From Macrostomum lignano (Eukaryota): a stretch of DNA of 64,000 bases. The DNA lies in contig NIVC01000181.1 in the NCBI GenBank assembly GCA_002269645.1, positions 213,693 to 277,692 of the forward strand, given 5' to 3'. Within the stretch, counting starts at the first letter, position 1; each line of letters starts with the position of its first letter. The notes beneath the pieces are model-generated. The model did no database searches. It worked only from the letters and a program-made list of their open reading frames with translations, and was not told where the DNA came from. This document shows, piece after piece, positions 26,701 through 38,700 of the stretch. The position numbers were made by a program, and so were the translations under genes.

Positions 26701-29700
26701 ATCGTACAACTGGAATCTCAATCCTACGACTGGAATCTTAATCCTACGACTGAAATCTCAATCCTACGACAGGAATCTGAATCCTACGACTGGAATCTCA
26801 ATCCGAAATCCAACAAAGTCAGCATAAAAGTACACTATCAGCCAACCTAGGCGAGCAGATGTAAAGCAGCCGGTCCCAAGTCGGCATGTAGATCATCTGG
26901 CCCTTGAACCGCACAAGCTTTGAGTCGTCGGAGCGGCTCAAGCTCGTGTCCTCGGACTTGTCGCCGGTTTGTCCCCTGTCCGGCGGGGCGCACTGAGCTT
27001 TCCCGCCGGCCGAAACTGTTCGATTGTAGGCGGCAATTTCGAATATGTTGTGCCGGTGCTTGAGGAACTGCGATTGGTAGGCAATTGAGGGGCTGCTTTT
27101 ATTGGCTGAAGCTGTGTACATGTAATGCTGAAATATCGATTAGAAATAAGTCTGCCTAAGCCGCTTCAAGTGTAGAGTGTTCTACCTCCCGTAAGAAGAC
27201 ATAAAAGTGTTAATGTACTACTCACACATTTTATTTAGTAGTAAATTGAAGAGCATGAATAAAGGTATGCTTTGAACTATAAGTATATTCGGACTAACCA
27301 ATAGGAAGAGAGAGACCTCGAGCATGCTAATTTTAGAAATCACCCAATCACGTGCGACCAACAACTGTCAATTCAAACCCCACCTTCAAGTCATCATTTG
27401 GTTTGCACTCGGGTTGCACCCGGATGAACCAATCAAAGTCTACCAGCTACGGTAACCAATCATGCGCTTTTACAGTAGACTAGTTGCGCAACTTTCTACC
27501 CTGTCATGCTTGACAGCCACCGAATCGTGACCCTTTGACATTTGCGAAGACAGTGATGTACGACCTCGAGAGAGGTCTGAACGCCTATAAATACAAGTGG
27601 TCCGGAACGGACCCGGAGCCACAAAATCTCCAAGAGAGAGAAGCTCCGAAGAGGAAGCTCTAGTGAAGCCTTCCTGAAGAAACTCGCGTCGTGGACGAGT
27701 TCTTGCGGTAAGCCTTACTCATTTGCGCCCGTTGGTTGAGACGTCTCGCTCAAGTCTATTGAGACTTGAGTTTATTTGAGTCTGCTGAGACTCTTGAGTC
27801 TGTTTAGACTCCACTGGTTGCAGTCTCCAGAAGGACTGCCCCTGATAGATCTTAGAAGACTATCAGTGGTTTCCGGAGCCATACCTAGAGTGCATAGAGG
27901 CACTACTAGAAGGAGTAGGCTTATATTAAACCGCAGTTTGGCGCAGGGATCCCCATTGTTAATTTGGAAGCTTCCGATTGGTCCGAACTACAGATACCGG
28001 CCGGCAAGAAGTCAAGAGGACAAAGGAGATAACGGACCAGATCAACTGTTACCAGGCGCCTAAACTTCCTGAAGGACAGGAAAGTTACTGATCGCGATAC
28101 TACGGACGAGGATTATTACGAGAGCTCTCATTTAAGGACTCAAAGGTAATTGAATACCTTCATTTGATTACTGGGTTGCCTAGCTACAGAGCTAGAAGTG
28201 ATTGTTCCTTGATTACAGTTGAGGACTGGTAATAAGGAACACATCAATTGGTGATCTCGCCCTCTCGGCACTACTCAAACTTTTGAGCAATAGCCTGGCC
28301 AAGCTATTGTAAAGTGACGAAAGAGCGACTTCATTAATTTTGCGCGCACGTGTTAAAGGTAACACTTTTCGACACTTTTCGATTTTTGTACGATTTGAAA
28401 CTCGAGTAAAAGTTTAGATATACAGGCTTGAGTACCTGTCAATTTTGAGTAACGTTTGAGCACGCGTGTTAAATTTTTGTTTTTAACGAGCTCGAGCAAG
28501 AGTAAACCTTAAACAAAACCGAAAACAACGTCCGGTACACTGAAAACAAACCGAAAAATAATCAATACACACTAAAACAAAACCGAAATTAAAAACACTT
28601 GACGAAAGCTAAAACAAACCGAAATTTGATAAAACGTGACAAGGCACGTCACGAAGACAAGAAAGGCCTTTGAAAAAAGCAAGAAGCAGCTGCACTTCAA
28701 GCACTTTAAAGATACACTTTGCGGGACGCCGCATAAGTGCGAAAATCAGCCAGCGAATAAGAGGTCAGAAAAGCAGCCAAAAGCCGAATTCCGCTCAAGG
28801 TCAGACATAACAAATTGAGGTGTCAAAAGCGCCGCGAGACAATCAGTTACAACCGAAGTTTATTTCGAAAGAAACACCACACTGGAAGATCCATTACAAA
28901 TCGACCCAGACCTAGAGCTACCGTTCTATCCCATCAACAACATGGCGCGGCGCAATCCAACGGTGCACAGAGATATCAAAGAGACAGTTGGCACCTTTTC
29001 TATGGAAAAAGACTTTAACACCTTTGTTGATCATTTTGACCTGGTATGTAGGGAATACAACCTACAAAATCCAGAAAAAGCGCAACTGTTGCCACCACTC
29101 CTCCAAGGCACTGCACGAGAGATTTATGGTAAACTAGATGCGGCAACACAGCAAAACTACCCAGCATTAATCATTCAACTGCGCGCGCATTTCAACCGCT
29201 GTGGCACAAACAGATCAGTGCTACTGCACAAGTTGCATAACAGAAGGATGCAGCCAACCGAATCCTTCCTGACCTTTGTGGACGACATCCGTCAGATAAT
29301 TAAGGCACTGCATCAGCCAACACTGCCAGCTGCAGACCAACCACCTCTGGGTGCGGCAGAATTAGCCGCTAGAGAGCGACAGCGATTGATGGATCGCGAA
29401 CAAAATCTGATTCTGCACGTAATAAACAATGCACAGCCGTCACTCCGAGATAGACTTCTACGCGAAAACATTGAAACCGAGGAAGACCTTTTACGGTGCG
29501 GAATGCAGTGGGAAGCAAGCGCTCCACTAATGACAACCGGCAACACAGAAGTGCAGAAACTGACACAGCAACTAAACAAACTGATGCAACATCAAACAGC
29601 CGTTATCGCCGAACAAAAAAGACGAAATGAACGAGCCCAAGCCAGATGCTATTACTGTGGACGAGAAGGACACTACCAAATACATTGTCCTCATCGGTCA

Positions 29701-32700
29701 ACAAGAAATGACATGCAGCGACAGCCATTCAACAGAAGGAAGCCGCAAAAACCATGGCAACAACATCAAAATTGGCAGCAGCAAAACACGAAACGCTTCG
29801 GAAACAATGGCTACAGACCGCGAAACACCAGATACATGCCCAAGCAACCAACGCAAGCGATGCAACGATATGCAAACGCCATCACGTACACACCGGAAAG
29901 CGAACAGCAAGAGCAGCAAGTCTTCACGATAGACGACTTAGAAATGGACTTCACTATCAATGAAATCGACTGGCTCGATGTGGAGAGCAGCGAAAAGACA
30001 AAAAACATCAGCATGGTCGAAATGAAAGAAACTAACATTGACAGCGAAGAAGAAAAGACAGAAGTGAGCACAGAAAAAACATTGTCAAGCGACATCAGTG
30101 AAAGAAAAGAAGAAACAAACAAAGCAACGACAAAGAACTGGCAACGAAGGATGACAACGAAAGAAGCAACGACGGAAATGCGGAGATGGAAGAAGAACAG
30201 CAAGAAGAAAGCAGCGATCACGATTATGAGATGCACAATGACGCTGATGACAACCGAGCCGCCGACAAAGAACATGAAGACGGAAGGCACAAAGGAATGG
30301 AAGAAAGAAATCTAAGCTCCGACAGCGATCAATGCTACGAGATCCGCTATAAACGAAATGGTGAAGCCTACATCCAAACGGTCGACTACAAGGCCGAAGT
30401 GAGGTACCGCAGACAATGGAGTGACACAACTACAACATCGGAAGAAAGCAAGGAAGAAAATGATGAAGACGACAAGCAGCGGAACGAATCGGATGCCTTG
30501 CGCTCGGAAACGCCAATGGAACAAGAGGAAGAATACGATGCGGACGCAGAAGATAACGAATGGCAGCCGCAGCCAATGCCAGCAAAGACAACGGCAACGT
30601 TCAGAAAATGGCGATTCTGGATATTCTGGATCATCATAATACTACTGACGGCAGTAGTCACCAAAGCAACAGCAATGGAGAAACCAATGATATGTCCAAC
30701 GGATGCGCATATCCAACCGATGATCTACAAGATACCAACCGACATCAAATGCAGCTACTTCAAGACAAATCAGACGAAGCCAAAGAAGATCACAATTGAT
30801 CTCTACAAAGCTAACATCAAGAAGCATCGACAACTCGGAATAGTGTGCTTTAGAGACAAGCACCTAGTGGAAAAAGTTTGGCGAGGACAATGGAACAGAA
30901 TTCGATTTTGGCAACACGAACTACATGTGTCGCACGCTGAATGTCTACAATGGAACCAAACACTGTTCTCAAAGGATGGTCAGCTAGAACCGGATGAGAA
31001 AGTGGGGGAGGCACAACTTTACCGAACGAAGAACTCAGCAAACGGACGATATGTACACTTTTCGGAAGCATGGACTAACTACATGACACGAAACAGTTAC
31101 CTAATCAGGAATGTTCCGTTCTACTACAATCCGTACGAGAAAATGGAATCACTGCAACTGCAACTAAGTGAATGCCGATACAGCGAAGGATGGTGCCCAA
31201 CGCCGATATTGCGAAATGCAGAACTCTACAGCCTACCGCTGAGTCCAACGTATCATCCAGACTATCGATGGCAGATAGTGCACAGAGCGATCCACACTAC
31301 GAAGAGCCATCAAAGTCACGACAATATTTCTTCGCTTGGAAGGTTGAGACGGAAATCGACTGTCAACTACAAAAGTACCACACAGTGGAAGGAGGCCTAC
31401 TGTCAAACACGTTTTTGGCAAAGTCAGGAGACTTGGCACTGACGTTTCAAAAGAAACCAGTCGAGCAAAAACTGAAATGCAAGGATACAGACAAGACACT
31501 ATTCATCTCGGAACAAGAGATACCAGTCTACGTAAAAGATGACGACAAACAAACCTTTCTGGCGATCATCAACGGAACGTATCAACAGCAGGAACAACAG
31601 AACAGACGACGACGTGACATCGAACGTCCCAAACTGGTGTCAAACCGACTACTGTCAGCAAAGATAACGGCTTTGGATCACAATCTACACAACCAGTTAA
31701 ACCACTTGCATCGAACACTGGTCCAGCTAACTTGCAAAATGCACGCAATCAACTTAAATTATGCCAGACAAAACTACTATGTCAACCCTACGATGACTTT
31801 TCGTAAAATCACCGGAATGACGAACGTTTTGGCAGTTCCAATATACGAGCATCTGTTGATATACAAGTGCACGCCGATACAGCACTTTAACATCTTGCCG
31901 TCGAACACGTCAACAACCTGCTACGACAAGCCAAGGATTGAAGCGTTCTACGAAGGAAAACGAATTCAAGGATTCTTGGACACGGTACACAACATCATCG
32001 TTGGCACCGCAATACCGAGACCTTGCACCACGGCAGCAAACTACTATCAACTGGACAATGCACTACACGTCATCAAAACAACTGGAACGACAGCAAACAT
32101 CACAGAACCGGAAGTAATCGTCGACGAAAACTACGACATGGAGGATTTGAAAATCCGATTCAACAGAACGAAGTATACGCCATTCGCCGATATCCAACTT
32201 GACGAGATAACACCAGGATGGACGATCAACGACTTCTTGCAAGCGTTCATCACCCAACGCAAGATGATTCACCAGCTGTTCACAAGAAAGGACAAAGGAA
32301 CCGGGACAGGAAGATTTCCCGTCCTTGTTTCAATGGACAGCGCCATCAAATCATTTTGGACAAACAGCTTCTGGGAGCTGCTCAATGGAAGAGGCAGTCT
32401 CTATCAAGGATTCATCTTCTACGGTGCTTGCATTGTGTGGATTGTCACGGCAATCTTCATCATTTCGTCGATCGTACGGTGCTTCAGTCAAACTTGTCCA
32501 AAAGCTAAGAAGACAGTTAATGCCATAATGCAAAGAACGACAACGGAAGGCGACAACAGTTTAGAACTAACAGAAACTGCACATCGTGAGGTTCAAGGGC
32601 AACCGACACTAGCAACGCGGCTATATCCATCGATTCCGACAACACCAACGGCACCAAGAATACAACCACCTAACTATCAAGCAGAACAGCAAGACCCAAA

Positions 32701-35700
32701 ATGGCCAGAGAACTACGTATGTACTCTACACGCCGAAATTGGCAAAGCCATGGCTCAAGTGGTAATCAACAATCTACCATGTCGAGCGCTACTCGACTCC
32801 GGCAGCTCCATCACAGTTATATCAAAACAACTGTGCAACAAGCTACGACTTGCTCTACGGCCAGCAACAATCGCAGTTGCAGGAGCAGGAGGACATTCGC
32901 TAAACATTCTGGGAAAAGCCGACATTGATTTAAGAATCGCTAATAAACATTTGACAGTTCCAACGTACGTCATCGACAGACTCCCAAACCAGGACGTTAT
33001 TGTTGGCATCGACACGTTCAAGCAGCTTCGACTACCATTGACCTTCGACTTCAATAAGCAAACGTTCAAGATCGACTCGGTAGAACAACCATTGATCAAC
33101 CAGATCCGAGTACTACCAAAAGTAACATTGCAACAAGATGTCATCATCCAACCGGAGAGCGCCTGCTGGATAAAGGCAAAGGCAACTAACGCAACGGAGG
33201 AAGCAATGATATTCGACCCAAACAGAAGAGTCACGGCTAAACACCAAATTATGATGCCTACGGCACTAGTACTGGTTGCAAAAGATAAACAGCTGCCAGT
33301 ACAAATATTCAACCCGAACACAGAAACGGTTCATCTACGACAAGGAATGTGCATCGGTCATCTCAACACCCAAGCATCGGTTATGCTGATTGAGCAAGCG
33401 ACTCCACGACTAACAGAGGAAGAATTTCAAAAGAAGATCAATTTGGATGACAGCCCGATTACGGAACAGCAAAAGAGGAAAGTTCGACAGCTGTTGTGGA
33501 AGTACAACGACGCTTTCTGCCACCATGACTACGACATCGGACGAGCCAAGGACATCAAACAGGAAATCAAACTTCTGCCGCACACGGAACCAATTCAGTG
33601 CAAACCGTACCCGATCGCCAAGCATCTGCAACAGCACTTCGATGAGATTATCGACAAAATGCTGAAACACGGCATCATCAGCAAAGCCATTTCAGCATAC
33701 TCATCACCATGTCTCTTGGTACAAAAGAAGGAGACTAACGAAAGACGACTCGTATGTGACTTCAGACTGCTGAACAAGTACATACCGACGGATCAGCAAA
33801 GCCTACCGAAGATCTCCGAACTACTAGCAAAGCTCAACACGGCAAAATTGTTCACAGTGTTCGACCTACGTCATGGATTTTGGCAAATTGAAATCGAGAA
33901 AGAGTCACGACAGTACACGGCTTTCAAAACCTACAATGGACAAGTATACGAGTACAATCGATCGCCGATGGGACTCAGCAACAGCCCAGCAACGATGAGC
34001 CGACTAACAGCATACATGCTTGCAGGATGCACGAACCTGTTGCACTATGTTGACGACATCTTGGCCTACGGAGAAGACTTCGAACGACTCTATGAAGCGA
34101 CGGAGAAGGCCCTCGCGCTTATCAACGACAAGGTCTTAAGCTACAACCAACTAAATGCAAATTCTTCCGAGACAACGTGCGTTACCTGGGACATCAGGTG
34201 ACAGCCAAAGGAATTTCACCGGACCCAGACAACGTGGATAAAGTGAAAAAGTTTCCTACGCCAACTAGCAAAACGAAGGTCCAATCATTTCTTGGACTTG
34301 CGCAATACTTCCGAAAGTTCTTACCCAACTTCGCGAAGACAGCAAAGCCGCTGTACGACCTGCTCAAGTTCGACAAATGGAAGCAGGAGAATTGGACACA
34401 AAAGCAACAAGAAAGTTTTGACGAAATCAAACGACAGCTGACATCAGACGCACTGCTACAGCATCCGGACTTCGACAAACCCTTCATCATCGAGACAGAC
34501 GCCTCAGGAACGGGACTCGGAGCAGTCCTACTACAGGAAACTGAAGACAAAAAGGAACGACCTATAGCCTACGTCAGTCGAGCACTTAAACCGAATGAGA
34601 CAAAATGGTCAGCTACGGAACGAGAACTACTAGGAGTTCTGTTCGCCCTACGACAGTTTCACTACTACATCTATGGATCTCCATTACAGACGATAGTACG
34701 CACAGATCATGCACCGCTGACCTACGTCGTAACTACAAAAGGACAAACAAACAACCGACTCATCAGGATGACACTCAAGATCCAGGACTACAACTACAAG
34801 CTCGTCTACAAACCAGGAATTACTAACAAGGCCGCGGACGCCCTGTCAAGAGCCTACGAAGTCAACGCCATTCATCCAATTCCTAACATCAAGGAGTTGA
34901 TGGATGAAACCGTGAACGACTACTTCTACCAAGCAGTTAAAAACAACGACAAGGACATCAAGCTCAGCCCCGTGGAACGAAAATTCCTGCGCAAGCAGCG
35001 ACAGCATTTAACAATCAACAAGTCACGACTCTACTGGATGAGTGACAACAAACCTAAAATCTACATGCCATATTCGTTTAGGCAGGCAATTCTCAACGAG
35101 CTGCACGACAACCCACTCGCTGGACACCTGTCGGCAGCCAAAACCATTGCAAGAGTGGAGCAATACTACTTTTGGCCAAGCATGCATGGCGACATCAAGC
35201 AGTATTGCAACAACTGCCACTCATGCGCAGCATCAAAGACAGGACGACGACAAAAACCACAGCTACAATCGATACCAAAGTCAACAACTATGGACTGTCT
35301 CAGCATCGACATCACCGGACCGCTGCCACCGAGCTGTCTCCATGGCATAGCCTACACCTACATCCTAACAGCCTTGGACATTTTCTCAAAGTTTGCTATT
35401 GCCATACCAATACCGGACATCACAGCTCAGACAGTGGCAATGGGTTTCTTCAACGACATCATCTGCAAGTACGGTACGCCAAAGAACCTCACATCGGACA
35501 ATGGATCGCAGTTTACGTCTCAACTCTTTCAGCAAGTGGTGAAGATCCTCAACATCACGCAGATCTACACATCGACCTACAATCCGAAGGCGAACATGGT
35601 TGAAAGGTTTCACCGCAACCTACACGAGATGATTACACACTTCGCGCATCAACAACCGGACGACTGGATCATCTATCTGCAAGCAGTAACAATGGCCTAC

Positions 35701-38700
35701 AACAGCGCTATTCATCGATCAACGGACAATACGCCATTCTTTCTAATGTTTGGGCGAGACTTCCAGCCGCCAAACCTATTGGCACAGCAACTACTACCAT
35801 CGCAATATGTGGAAGTCCCGACGTCCATTCAAAAGTTCGTCACGCAACTACACCTCGCATGGAAAGTAGCCAAGCACAACATCGACAATCAGGTGGCTCT
35901 AACCACCGGCACCGACACGAGATCGACAACTCTGACAGCCGGCGACATCGTCTACCTGCACTATCCGCCGCAACAGACGCACAAACACGCACAGAAGTAC
36001 AAAGGACCATATCGAGTGGTCCAACTAACGTCACCGACAACGGCACGCCTGGCCAATGTGCAAGATCCTCATCAGCACCAATTCTACGTGCACATTCATC
36101 GACTAAAGAAGATCAACACTGACACGACAACGTTTTTACCGTCACTAGACAACGCTGATCGCACGCGTTCGGCGAACCGCCACATCGCAACAAAACACGA
36201 GGAGACACAAACATCAACCGAGAACCAGCAACATGGCTACAATCTGCGACCTCGTTAAGTTGCGAAAACAACCCGTGTAGAGACCGGGTCAGAATAGCTC
36301 TACAGCTTCGCAAGCTTGTCGTAAGAGGCGACTAATCTGAGCGACTTCAAACTTCAAGCGACGACGACAATGGGCAACGCACTGTCCAAACAGGCGCCCC
36401 AACTACAGCAACTCTATGAATGCCCAATATGTTTAACTGATGACTTGGCTGTCAAGCCACCAATTATTTGTGAAAACAGACATCGCATATGCGGACAATA
36501 TTTAAGCGACTCACATTATATTCAGCTCTGGCAGAATTGCCCGATAGGTAGAAGTAGTTTGCGGCAGTGCGCCTATTGTTAGTCTTGGCGCACATGTCAA
36601 TACTGTAACCAAAAACATTTTATTTGCATGCGTATACTTACCTTTAAATAACTTTTATAACCAACGCTCTTAACTACCCATTACTAAATACCTGTAACAC
36701 TTGTGACAAATGATTATTATAAAGACATGCTTGAACTTTTTATGCGTTTCAATCCTCTATTTAAAACTCGGGACGAGTTTTTTGTAAACATGGGAGATTT
36801 TGTAGAGTGTTCTACCTCCCGTAAGAAGACATAAAAGTGTTAATGTACTACTCACACATTTTATTTAGTAGTAAATTGAAGAGCATGAATAAAGGTATGC
36901 TTTGAACTATAAGTATATTCGGACTAACCAATAGGAAGAGAGAGACCTCGAGCATGCTAATTTTAGAAATCACCCAATCACGTGCGACCAACAACTGTCA
37001 ATTCAAACCCCACCTTCAAGTCATCATTTGGTTTGCACTCGGGTTGCACCCGGATGAACCAATCAAAGTCTACCAGCTACGGTAACCAATCATGCGCTTT
37101 TACAGTAGACTAGTTGCGCAACTTTCTACCCTGTCATGCTTGACAGCCACCGAATCGTGACCCTTTGACATTTGCGAAGACAGTGATGTACGACCTCGAG
37201 AGAGGTCTGAACGCCTATAAATACAAGTGGTCCGGAACGGACCCGGAGCCACAAAATCTCCAAGAGAGAGAAGCTCCGAAGAGGAAGCTCTAGTGAAGCC
37301 TTCCTGAAGAAACTCGCGTCGTGGACGAGTTCTTGCGGTAAGCCTTACTCATTTGCGCCCGTTGGTTGAGACGTCTCGCTCAAGTCTATTGAGACTTGAG
37401 TTTATTTGAGTCTGCTGAGACTCTTGAGTCTGTTTAGACTCCACTGGTTGCAGTCTCCAGAAGGACTGCCCCTGATAGATCTTAGAAGACTATCAGTGGT
37501 TTCCGGAGCCATACCTAGAGTGCATAGAGGCACTACTAGAAGGAGTAGGCTTATATTAAACCGCAGTTTGGCGCAGGGATCCCCATTGTTAATTTGGAAG
37601 CTTCCGATTGGTCCGAACTACAGATACCGGCCGGCAAGAAGTCAAGAGGACAAAGGAGATAACGGACCAGATCAACTGTTACCAGGCGCCTAAACTTCCT
37701 GAAGGACAGGAAAGTTACTGATCGCGATACTACGGACGAGGATTATTACGAGAGCTCTCATTTAAGGACTCAAAGGTAATTGAATACCTTCATTTGATTA
37801 CTGGGTTGCCTAGCTACAGAGCTAGAAGTGATTGTTCCTTGATTACAGTTGAGGACTGGTAATAAGGAACACATCACAAGGTGAGGCAGCCAGATGTCTC
37901 ACTTTCAGATGTGAGACTGGGTGAGATTCCAGATGTGAGATTGGGCGAGATTTCAGATGTGAGATTGGGTAAGATTCCAGATGTGAGATTGGGTGAGATT
38001 TCAGATGTGAGATTGGGTAAGATTCCAGATGTGAGATTGGGTGAGATTTCAGATGTGAGACTGGGTGAGATTTCAGATGTGAGACTGGGTGAGATTCCAG
38101 ATGTGAGACTGGGTGAGATTCCAGATGTGAGACTGGTTGAGATTTCAGAGATGAGACTGAGTGAGATTCCAGATGTGAGACTGGGTGAGATTCCAGATGT
38201 GAGACTGGGTGAGATTCCAGATGTGAGACTGGGTGAGATTCCAGATGTGAGACTGGTTGAGATTTCAGAGATGAGACTGGGTGAGATTCAGATGTGAGAT
38301 AAACTCAGATATGAGACTTCAGACTCAGCCAGCCTGTCTCACCTCATCCCAGCAGCAGTCGATGAAGGGCCTGATCAACATGAAGTTGATGCCAAAGTGG
38401 ACCCCGTCAGCAGCCTCGCCAAGGATGTTGGCAAACCCGCTGCCAGCAGCGCTGACTGTCAAGCTCCTGTCCAAGGCCAGGTAGTAAGGGAACAGGGTGA
38501 TGAAGTCCCTGTAGGGCACAACGTAAGAATCGGGATCGATGATTCGATAAGCGGTGCTGTGCTCGCCCGAGTAGGCCACGTTATCGAATCTGAGCTCGTA
38601 CACGTACAGGCTGTAGGCGCCCTGCTGGCTACTGTCGACGAGGCCGATGTCCAGCTCCAGCTGGTAGAGAACTCTGGCTATGGTGTACAGCTGGCCCCGG

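What the first reader, a model, noticed from the sequence alone, without database searches (positions are those of the whole stretch)
30100..34140. Three -1 breaks that probably hide a single polyprotein of about 2440 aa
Seen: the four ORFs step through frames 1, 3, 2, 1, each a -1 shift. At 34127-34134 the text GAC AA GGT lacks one A. Restoring it gives [24 protein letters not shown], a canonical RT segment, so that break is a homopolymer deletion. The break near 31196-31201 could be repaired the same way (tentative). The first lies in an A-rich stretch at about 30102-30140 with no canonical slippery heptamer that I could see. Inference: assembly indels or fresh mutations in a gene that reads through from 28942 to 36258; the first break could instead be a programmed frameshift.
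Basis: partly seen in the sequence, partly recalled or inferred. Interest (0 to 1): 0.7.

Follow-up and report, generated by a model that had tools for sequence, protein, structure and literature searches.

The report
Assembly errors split an envelope retrotransposon
The three breaks are most likely sequencing errors in one young copy of an already described flatworm retrotransposon that makes its capsid, a herpesvirus-like envelope protein and its enzymes from one long gene.

Summary
The four ORFs are real and are pieces of one gene. They lie in a 10.7-kb Ty3/gypsy LTR element (27171-37876; identical 1076-bp LTRs, 4-bp target duplication), ordered Gag, Env, protease, RT, RNase H, integrase. 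Env folds like herpesvirus gB (Foldseek E 4.5e-22).

No programmed frameshift is supported. Breaks 1 and 2 occur in 0 of 39 copies. Close copies carry 158 frame-changing indels against 57 private substitutions, a long-read error signature. Short-read contigs from 4 of 4 runs differ in length at all three sites. Break 3 is shared with two copies and may be real.

Named homologs point to the flatworm Macrostomum lignano. GAG-ENV-POL gB-type elements are published (Chary and Hayashi, eLife 2026), and a sister subfamily matches their Mlig_errantivirus_2 in LTR length, element length and primer site. Verdict: known element, mostly artefactual breaks.

The parts
27167..27170 (+). 5' copy of the 4-bp target-site duplication
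   Evidence: same 4-mer flanks both LTRs; 9 of 10 other LTR pairs also show a 4-bp duplication
27171..28246 (+). 5' LTR, 1076 bp, TG...CA ends
   Evidence: 100% identical to the 3' LTR, no gaps
28249..28260 (+). tRNA primer-binding site, 2 nt after the LTR
   Evidence: same 12-mer and offset as listed for Mlig_errantivirus_2
28942..29870 (+). Gag, with one CCHC zinc knuckle starting at 29647
   Evidence: motif position; only weak Pfam hits (zf-CCHC E 0.022, DUF1759 E 0.002); dN/dS 0.04-0.05
29870..30605 (+). Acidic low-complexity linker between Gag and Env (30% D+E); variable between subfamilies but stays in frame
   Evidence: dN/dS 0.30-0.38; 54-57% amino-acid identity between subfamilies
30110..30135 (+). 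Break 1 (frame-changing indel, private to this copy)
   Evidence: spanning word in 0 of 39 copies; length difference in 4 of 4 short-read runs
30606..30674 (+). Internal signal-peptide-like hydrophobic segment
   Evidence: hydropathy peak 2.19; cleavage is inferred
30675..32407 (+). Env ectodomain, class III gB-like fold (578 aa, 12 Cys in uninterrupted copies); polybasic furin-like site at 31604
   Evidence: AlphaFold pLDDT 78 on a natural uninterrupted copy; Foldseek to HSV-1 gB E 4.5e-22; PF24664 E about 1e-5, below cut-off; dN/dS 0.05-0.12
31280..31295 (+). Break 2 (frame-changing indel, private to this copy)
   Evidence: 0 of 39 copies share it; short-read contigs match the window with 0-1 other letters over 307-319 nt apart from one gap, in 4 of 4 runs
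32399..32498 (+). Env transmembrane anchor, followed in frame by a tail of about 85 aa
   Evidence: hydropathy peak 2.43
32756..33013 (+). Aspartic protease
   Evidence: PF13650 E 1.1e-10
33401..34390 (+). Reverse transcriptase (YVDD at 34046), interrupted by break 3
   Evidence: PF00078 E 2.8e-19; best solved relatives include the Ty3-G Gag-Pol chain 7q5b, E 7e-27
34115..34135 (+). Break 3 (frame-changing indel; same frame state in 2 other copies)
   Evidence: at 34121 all laid contig depth carries a length difference in 4 of 4 runs
34393..34791 (+). RNase H
   Evidence: PF17919 E 2.4e-37, PF17917 E 8.9e-35
35068..36258 (+). Integrase (H2C2, core, GPY motif at about 36004) and stop codon
   Evidence: PF17921 E 1.2e-20, PF00665 E 1.7e-14; motif position
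36370..36582 (+). Small 70-aa Cys/His-rich, RING-like ORF after integrase
   Evidence: weak hits only (TRAF6 RING E 0.036); same start and stop in 15 of 31 copies
36801..37876 (+). 3' LTR
37877..37880 (+). 3' copy of the target-site duplication

Best explanation
The window holds a very recently inserted copy of a Ty3/gypsy 'errantivirus' family whose Gag, Env and Pol come from one reading frame of about 2439 codons (shown in other copies). All or most of this copy's three breaks are consensus errors of a long-read assembly inside a multi-copy repeat (inferred), not a regulatory device. How the family likely works: one polyprotein is made. Gag stays in the cytosol, the internal signal sequence threads the gB-like Env ectodomain into the ER, and the Env anchor returns the chain to the cytosol, where protease, RT, RNase H and integrase follow. 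Signal peptidase, a furin-like protease and the element's own protease would separate the parts. Domain order, hydrophobic segments, fold and purifying selection are shown; topology, cleavages, particle formation and cell-to-cell spread are inferred.
For: Single frame: 4 of 39 copies are stop-free over 2480-2538 codons, a fifth over 2370. Read-through in 28 of 38, 32 of 39 and 31 of 37 covering copies. 10 distant homologs, plus 1 same-family record, among 55 hits carry CCHC, Env and a protease motif in one chain. A second family in this genome has open frames of 2859-2866 codons in 4 of its 7 full-length matches. Error signature: the 23 close copies carry 161 indels away from the window's breaks, 148 of them 1 nt and 158 frame-changing, against 57 private substitutions. 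113 of 129 indel positions occur in one copy only. The rate per run rises from 0.0007 at single bases to 0.009 in runs of four. Without the two worst copies, both reaching contig ends, it is still 93 indels to 43 substitutions. The window has 0 private substitutions and identical LTRs, yet three indels. Short-read contigs show a length difference at all three sites in 4 of 4 runs from 4 studies, and no other indel rows. Env is under purifying selection (dN/dS 0.05-0.12) and folds like gB.
Against: No raw or locus-specific reads of this insertion were seen; the contigs pool all copies and drop rare variants. Break 3 has the same frame state in 2 other copies, one identical to the window over the surrounding 975 nt; the trio is only mildly closer than random (9% and 22% of trios are as close). 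Breaks 2 and 3 are not in long homopolymer runs. In 10 LTR pairs indels do not outnumber substitutions (10 versus 14). Two of 7 recurrent indels cluster by haplotype at p of 0.05 or less, so some lesions may be inherited. The sequencing technology of the assembly was not established here.
Confidence: 0.76

Rival explanations
1. The family is a single ORF, but this copy is really defective: the indels arose during reverse transcription or after insertion, and break 3 was inherited from a damaged parent copy mobilised in trans.
For: Break 3 state is shared with two copies, one at 0 local substitutions. 7 indel positions recur in three or more copies. Defective copies can be mobilised in trans (general knowledge).
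Against: Indels exceed private substitutions about 2 to 3 fold, whereas spontaneous mutation gives far more substitutions (recalled). The window has no private substitution and identical LTRs. At 34121 no laid short-read contig carries the window's length in any of 4 runs. Indel load is highest in two copies at contig ends.
Confidence: 0.2
2. Break 1 is a programmed -1 ribosomal frameshift that sets the ratio of Gag to Env-Pol.
For: It lies between Gag and the next domain, where such signals usually sit (general knowledge). The region is A-rich.
Against: 0 of 39 copies share the spanning word and 28 of 38 read through in one frame with no stop. The 5 close copies with the same net frame state have their own indel elsewhere. 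No slippery heptamer in the overlap, no stimulatory structure.
Confidence: 0.02
3. The four ORFs are expressed separately through their own starts or splicing.
For: Annotated proteins from this family start at internal Met codons or are partial.
Against: The breaks fall inside Env and inside RT and are not shared by the copies. Longer records cross sites 2 and 3 in one chain. No joints were listed in the four laid runs (contigs only).
Confidence: 0.02

Closest known systems
Platyhelminthes_Rhabditophora_Mlig_errantivirus_2 (Chary and Hayashi, eLife 2026, PMC13524379, Supplementary file 1)
   Same: Same host species by named homologs. gB-type Env. Same 12-nt primer site 2 nt after the LTR. A sister subfamily in this genome has 855-866-bp LTRs and 10,562-10,619-bp length against the listed 863 and 10,591. 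The paper gives GAG-ENV-POL order for flatworm elements.
   Different: The window copy belongs to a subfamily with 1076-bp LTRs (about 78-80% identical over the shared LTR part; 87-92% over env-pol). The published element's sequence was not compared directly. The main text has no occurrence of 'single ORF', 'fused', 'frameshift' or 'splic'.
Non-canonical nematode endogenous retroviruses (Sacco et al. 2022, J Gen Virol, PMID 35550022)
   Same: Env placed before Pol (as cited). I recall that the abstract describes a continuous gag-env-pro-pol ORF and a nyamivirus-like Env; the top viral-library fold hit here is a nyavirus glycoprotein.
   Different: Different phylum. The paper is not held, so everything beyond its title and the citing sentences is recalled.
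Drosophila gypsy/ZAM errantiviruses
   Same: Ty3/gypsy Pol order and an envelope gene.
   Different: They have gag-pol-env order and F-type Env; separate ORFs, a frameshift and spliced env mRNA are recalled. Here Env is gB-like and sits in the middle of one ORF.
Herpesvirus gB and nyamivirus/chuvirus glycoproteins (class III fusion proteins)
   Same: Fold of the ectodomain: Foldseek probability 1.0, E 4.5e-22 to HSV-1 gB and 7.8e-25 to a nyavirus glycoprotein.
   Different: Only 10-14% identity, TM-score about 0.4 with high rmsd for a monomer model; fusion activity untested.

Membership tests
Ty3/gypsy LTR retrotransposon (Metaviridae) | Two LTRs with TG...CA ends, target-site duplication, primer-binding site | tested here: met
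Ty3/gypsy LTR retrotransposon (Metaviridae) | Pol order protease, RT, RNase H, integrase | tested here: met
Ty3/gypsy LTR retrotransposon (Metaviridae) | RT groups with Ty3/gypsy in a phylogeny or profile classification | tested here: inconclusive
   Ty3-G RT is among the two best solved relatives; no tree or GyDB profile test was run
GAG-ENV-POL, HSV/gB-type errantiviruses | Env lies between Gag and Pol | tested here: met
GAG-ENV-POL, HSV/gB-type errantiviruses | Ectodomain between a signal peptide (or TM) and a TM segment, with a gB-like class III fold | tested here: met
   hydropathy; model and Foldseek; no dedicated signal-peptide predictor was run
GAG-ENV-POL, HSV/gB-type errantiviruses | Lineage-specific cysteine-bridge configuration; trimer | not tested
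   5 nearly invariant cysteines seen in the alignment; configuration not assigned, trimer not modelled
GAG-ENV-POL, HSV/gB-type errantiviruses | Several near-identical copies (recent expansion) | tested here: met
   23 copies at 96-99%; LTR pairs differ by 0-6 substitutions
Mlig_errantivirus_2 family | Same primer site, LTR length and element length | tested here: met
   primer site in the window; lengths in the sister subfamily
Mlig_errantivirus_2 family | Direct sequence identity to the published element | not tested
   its sequence was not fetched
Infectious errantivirus | Enveloped particles that enter other cells | not testable with these tools
   no tool addresses it
Programmed -1 ribosomal frameshift | Slippery heptamer in the overlap, downstream structure, shifted state conserved among copies | tested here: not met

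The most novel reading that the evidence does not exclude
These flatworm elements are currently spreading retroviruses that use a flavivirus-like strategy: a single membrane-threaded polyprotein forces Gag, a class III fusogen and Pol to be made 1:1:1, tethers Gag and Pol to opposite ends of Env, and so couples packaging to budding without frameshift or splicing. Identical LTRs, strong purifying selection on Env and mosaic Env haplotypes would then reflect ongoing particle-mediated spread in a tractable stem-cell model animal, giving a first test of infectivity for a non-insect errantivirus.
Probability: 0.25. Interest if true: 0.6.

Novelty: already known. Interest (0 to 1): 0.22.

Why it matters
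The breaks matter only as a warning: in this assembly 35 of 39 copies look broken, probably largely through indel errors, so counts of intact copies and gene models for the family are unreliable. The element is of moderate interest. Its arrangement is published, but a single frame for Gag, Env and Pol raises an open question of how enough Gag is made and how the chain crosses the membrane. Very young copies in a laboratory flatworm make that question approachable by reads, ribosome profiling and proteomics.

Tried and rejected
Programmed frameshift at break 1: rejected.
My recalled lead that C. elegans Cer1 has Env between Gag and Pol: wrong; passages of PMC10309623 place its extra ORF after pol.
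Source paper for the GenBank 'retrovirus-related polyprotein' records: PMC4604429 has none of the terms LTR, gypsy, polyprotein or GenBank; source not found.
Heat-shock element in the LTR (prompted by PMC12801592): no canonical motif.
Sacco et al. 2022: not held; searches found no other paper describing it except the eLife citation.
Expression: no RNA holder on record; run X14 is only guessed to be RNA, and no joints were listed; no conclusion on transcription or splicing.
Word-index protein searches each found one relative; the full HMMER scan was needed.
Atlas feature search: top hit 0.90 to a Monjiviricetes fusion cluster with low recognition score, a lead only.
Earlier findings of this scan: none.
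The small ORF after integrase: only weak RING hits.
PMC10714607 passages were irrelevant.
Full report
OBSERVATION. They lie inside a complete LTR element at 27171-37876: two 1076-bp LTRs identical without gaps, TG...CA ends, a primer-binding site 2 nt after the 5' LTR and a 4-bp target duplication. Pfam gives protease, RT, RNase H and integrase in Ty3/gypsy order. Between Gag (CCHC at 29647) and the protease lie an acidic linker, a hydrophobic segment (30606-30681), an ectodomain with a polybasic site (31604) and a second hydrophobic segment (32399-32498).

OTHER COPIES. A search of the own genome scored 40 of 86 candidates, and I fetched the coding region of all 39 scored places other than the window. 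Four have one stop-free frame of 2480, 2480, 2535 and 2538 codons, and a fifth has 2370. From the Gag Met the four give 2439, 2439, 2498 and 2495 aa. Across wide intervals around the three sites, 28 of 38, 32 of 39 and 31 of 37 covering copies read through in frame without a stop. Copies with the window's net frame state at sites 1 and 2 have their own indels elsewhere, and the words spanning those two breaks occur in 0 of 39 copies, while control words 90 nt away occur in 6-22. Database proteins of the family cross site 3 (7 of 10 records) and site 2 (1 of 10) in one chain. The family is therefore a single ORF.

WHERE THE BREAKS ARE. They map near 30,120, 31,290 and 34,120. Break 1 has no slippery heptamer in the overlap and no structure behind it.

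ERROR OR MUTATION. In the 23 close copies there are 161 indels away from the window's breaks: 148 are 1 nt, 158 change frame, and in 135 the copy is the shorter. The same copies have 57 private substitutions. 113 of 129 indel positions are singletons. Two copies that reach contig ends carry 47 and 18 indels; without them the ratio is 93 to 43. The window itself has no private substitution. Natural mutation gives mostly substitutions (recalled), so this looks like uncorrected long-read consensus error in a repeat (inference; the technology was not established). Of 24 runs listed I laid 4, one from each of 4 studies. All 4 show a length difference at each site and no other indel row. At site 2 a contig matches the window with 0-1 other letters over 307-319 nt apart from one gap in each run. 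At 34121 all laid depth carries the difference.

AGAINST THE ERROR READING. Contigs pool copies and drop rare variants. Break 3 is shared with two copies, one locally identical to the window, though the trio is not clearly closer than chance (9% and 22%). Ten LTR pairs differ by 14 substitutions and 10 indels. Two of 7 recurrent indels cluster by haplotype. I put 0.76 on mostly errors and 0.2 on real lesions.

THE MIDDLE DOMAIN. A natural uninterrupted ectodomain (578 aa, 12 Cys) found 55 relatives among 1.84 billion representatives. An alignment of 43 sequences gave a model with pLDDT 78 and pTM 0.63. Foldseek matches it to herpesvirus gB (E 4.5e-22, probability 1.0, TM about 0.43) and to nyamivirus, chuvirus and related glycoproteins (best E 7.8e-25). 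Between subfamilies dN/dS is 0.05-0.12 in the ectodomain, 0.03-0.06 in Gag and Pol, and 0.30-0.38 in the linker (three pairwise comparisons to one copy, not independent). Of the 55 relatives, 20 have a CCHC upstream of Env, 16 a protease motif downstream, and 11 both in one chain, one of them from this family (motif patterns, with Pfam support for several; some may be spliced gene models). A second family in the same genome has open frames of 2859-2866 codons in 4 of 7 full-length matches.

MECHANISM. Shown: one frame, domain order, two hydrophobic segments, gB-like fold, selection, recent insertion. Inferred: Gag cytosolic, Env luminal, Pol cytosolic again; release by signal peptidase, a furin-like protease and the element's protease; equal amounts of the three parts unless an unseen RNA form makes extra Gag. 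Particle formation and infectivity are untested.

WHAT IS KNOWN. Named homologs at 94-98% identity are from Macrostomum lignano. Chary and Hayashi (PMC13524379; I read the abstract, part 1 of 2 of section 5, section 14, passages, and the Platyhelminthes rows of Supplementary file 1) report GAG-ENV-POL elements with gB-type Env in nematodes, bryozoans and flatworms, and list Mlig_errantivirus_2 (16 copies, 863-bp LTR, 10,591 bp). Its primer site equals the window's. Five of 8 divergent copies I measured have 855-866-bp LTRs and 10,562-10,619-bp length; two have about 1075-bp LTRs and one was cut off. The window is thus very likely a sister subfamily of that element. Figures and sequences of the paper were not seen and may state the single-frame layout. 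'gag-env-pol' returned only that paper and 'gag-env-pro-pol' none. Sacco et al. 2022 was seen only as a reference; its continuous ORF is recalled. Ustyantsev et al. (PMC12801592; parts 1-2 of 6 and passages) catalogue this species' LTR families, with no whole-word 'env' or 'envelope' in the main text; its supplements were not read. PMC10309623, PMC10714607 and PMC4604429 were seen as passages only.

VERDICT. Interest 0.22.

Noticed in passing
window about 31100: The copy is a mosaic of two Env haplotypes: upstream of about 31100 it matches one group of copies, downstream another (50 minority alleles, 49 of them between 31113 and 31396). Template-switch recombination or an assembly chimera.
   Followed up: partly
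window 36370-36582: 70-aa RING-like ORF between the integrase stop and the 3' LTR; same start and stop in 15 of 31 copies; weak TRAF6/SIAH RING hits.
   Followed up: partly
window about 31436: In runs X1 and X2 a contig joins the LTR 3' end directly to this point inside Env (table 7): probably a nested self-insertion or a deleted derivative.
   Followed up: no
own genome: A second gag-env-pol family (about 2855 aa, 30% Env identity) is present with near-identical copies, 4 of 7 open; further copies of the window's family not in my set of 39 also show frames of 2500 codons or more.
   Followed up: partly
L080/L081 and L082-L085: One LTR pair has non-matching flanks and the most differences, and shares its 3' flank with two other loci that have identical flanks: redundant haplotypes or a misjoin.
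   Followed up: no
window 29950-30300: The acidic linker diverges sharply between subfamilies (nucleotide alignment lost, 54-57% amino-acid identity) yet stays in frame.
   Followed up: partly
window 1-27000 and 37880-64000: The flanks are packed with different minisatellite arrays, units of 8-45 nt; many listed ORFs there are probably repeat artefacts.
   Followed up: no
protein P0055: A BEL/Pao-type polyprotein (Peptidase_A17, DUF5641) carries a weakly related Env near its C-terminus.
   Followed up: no
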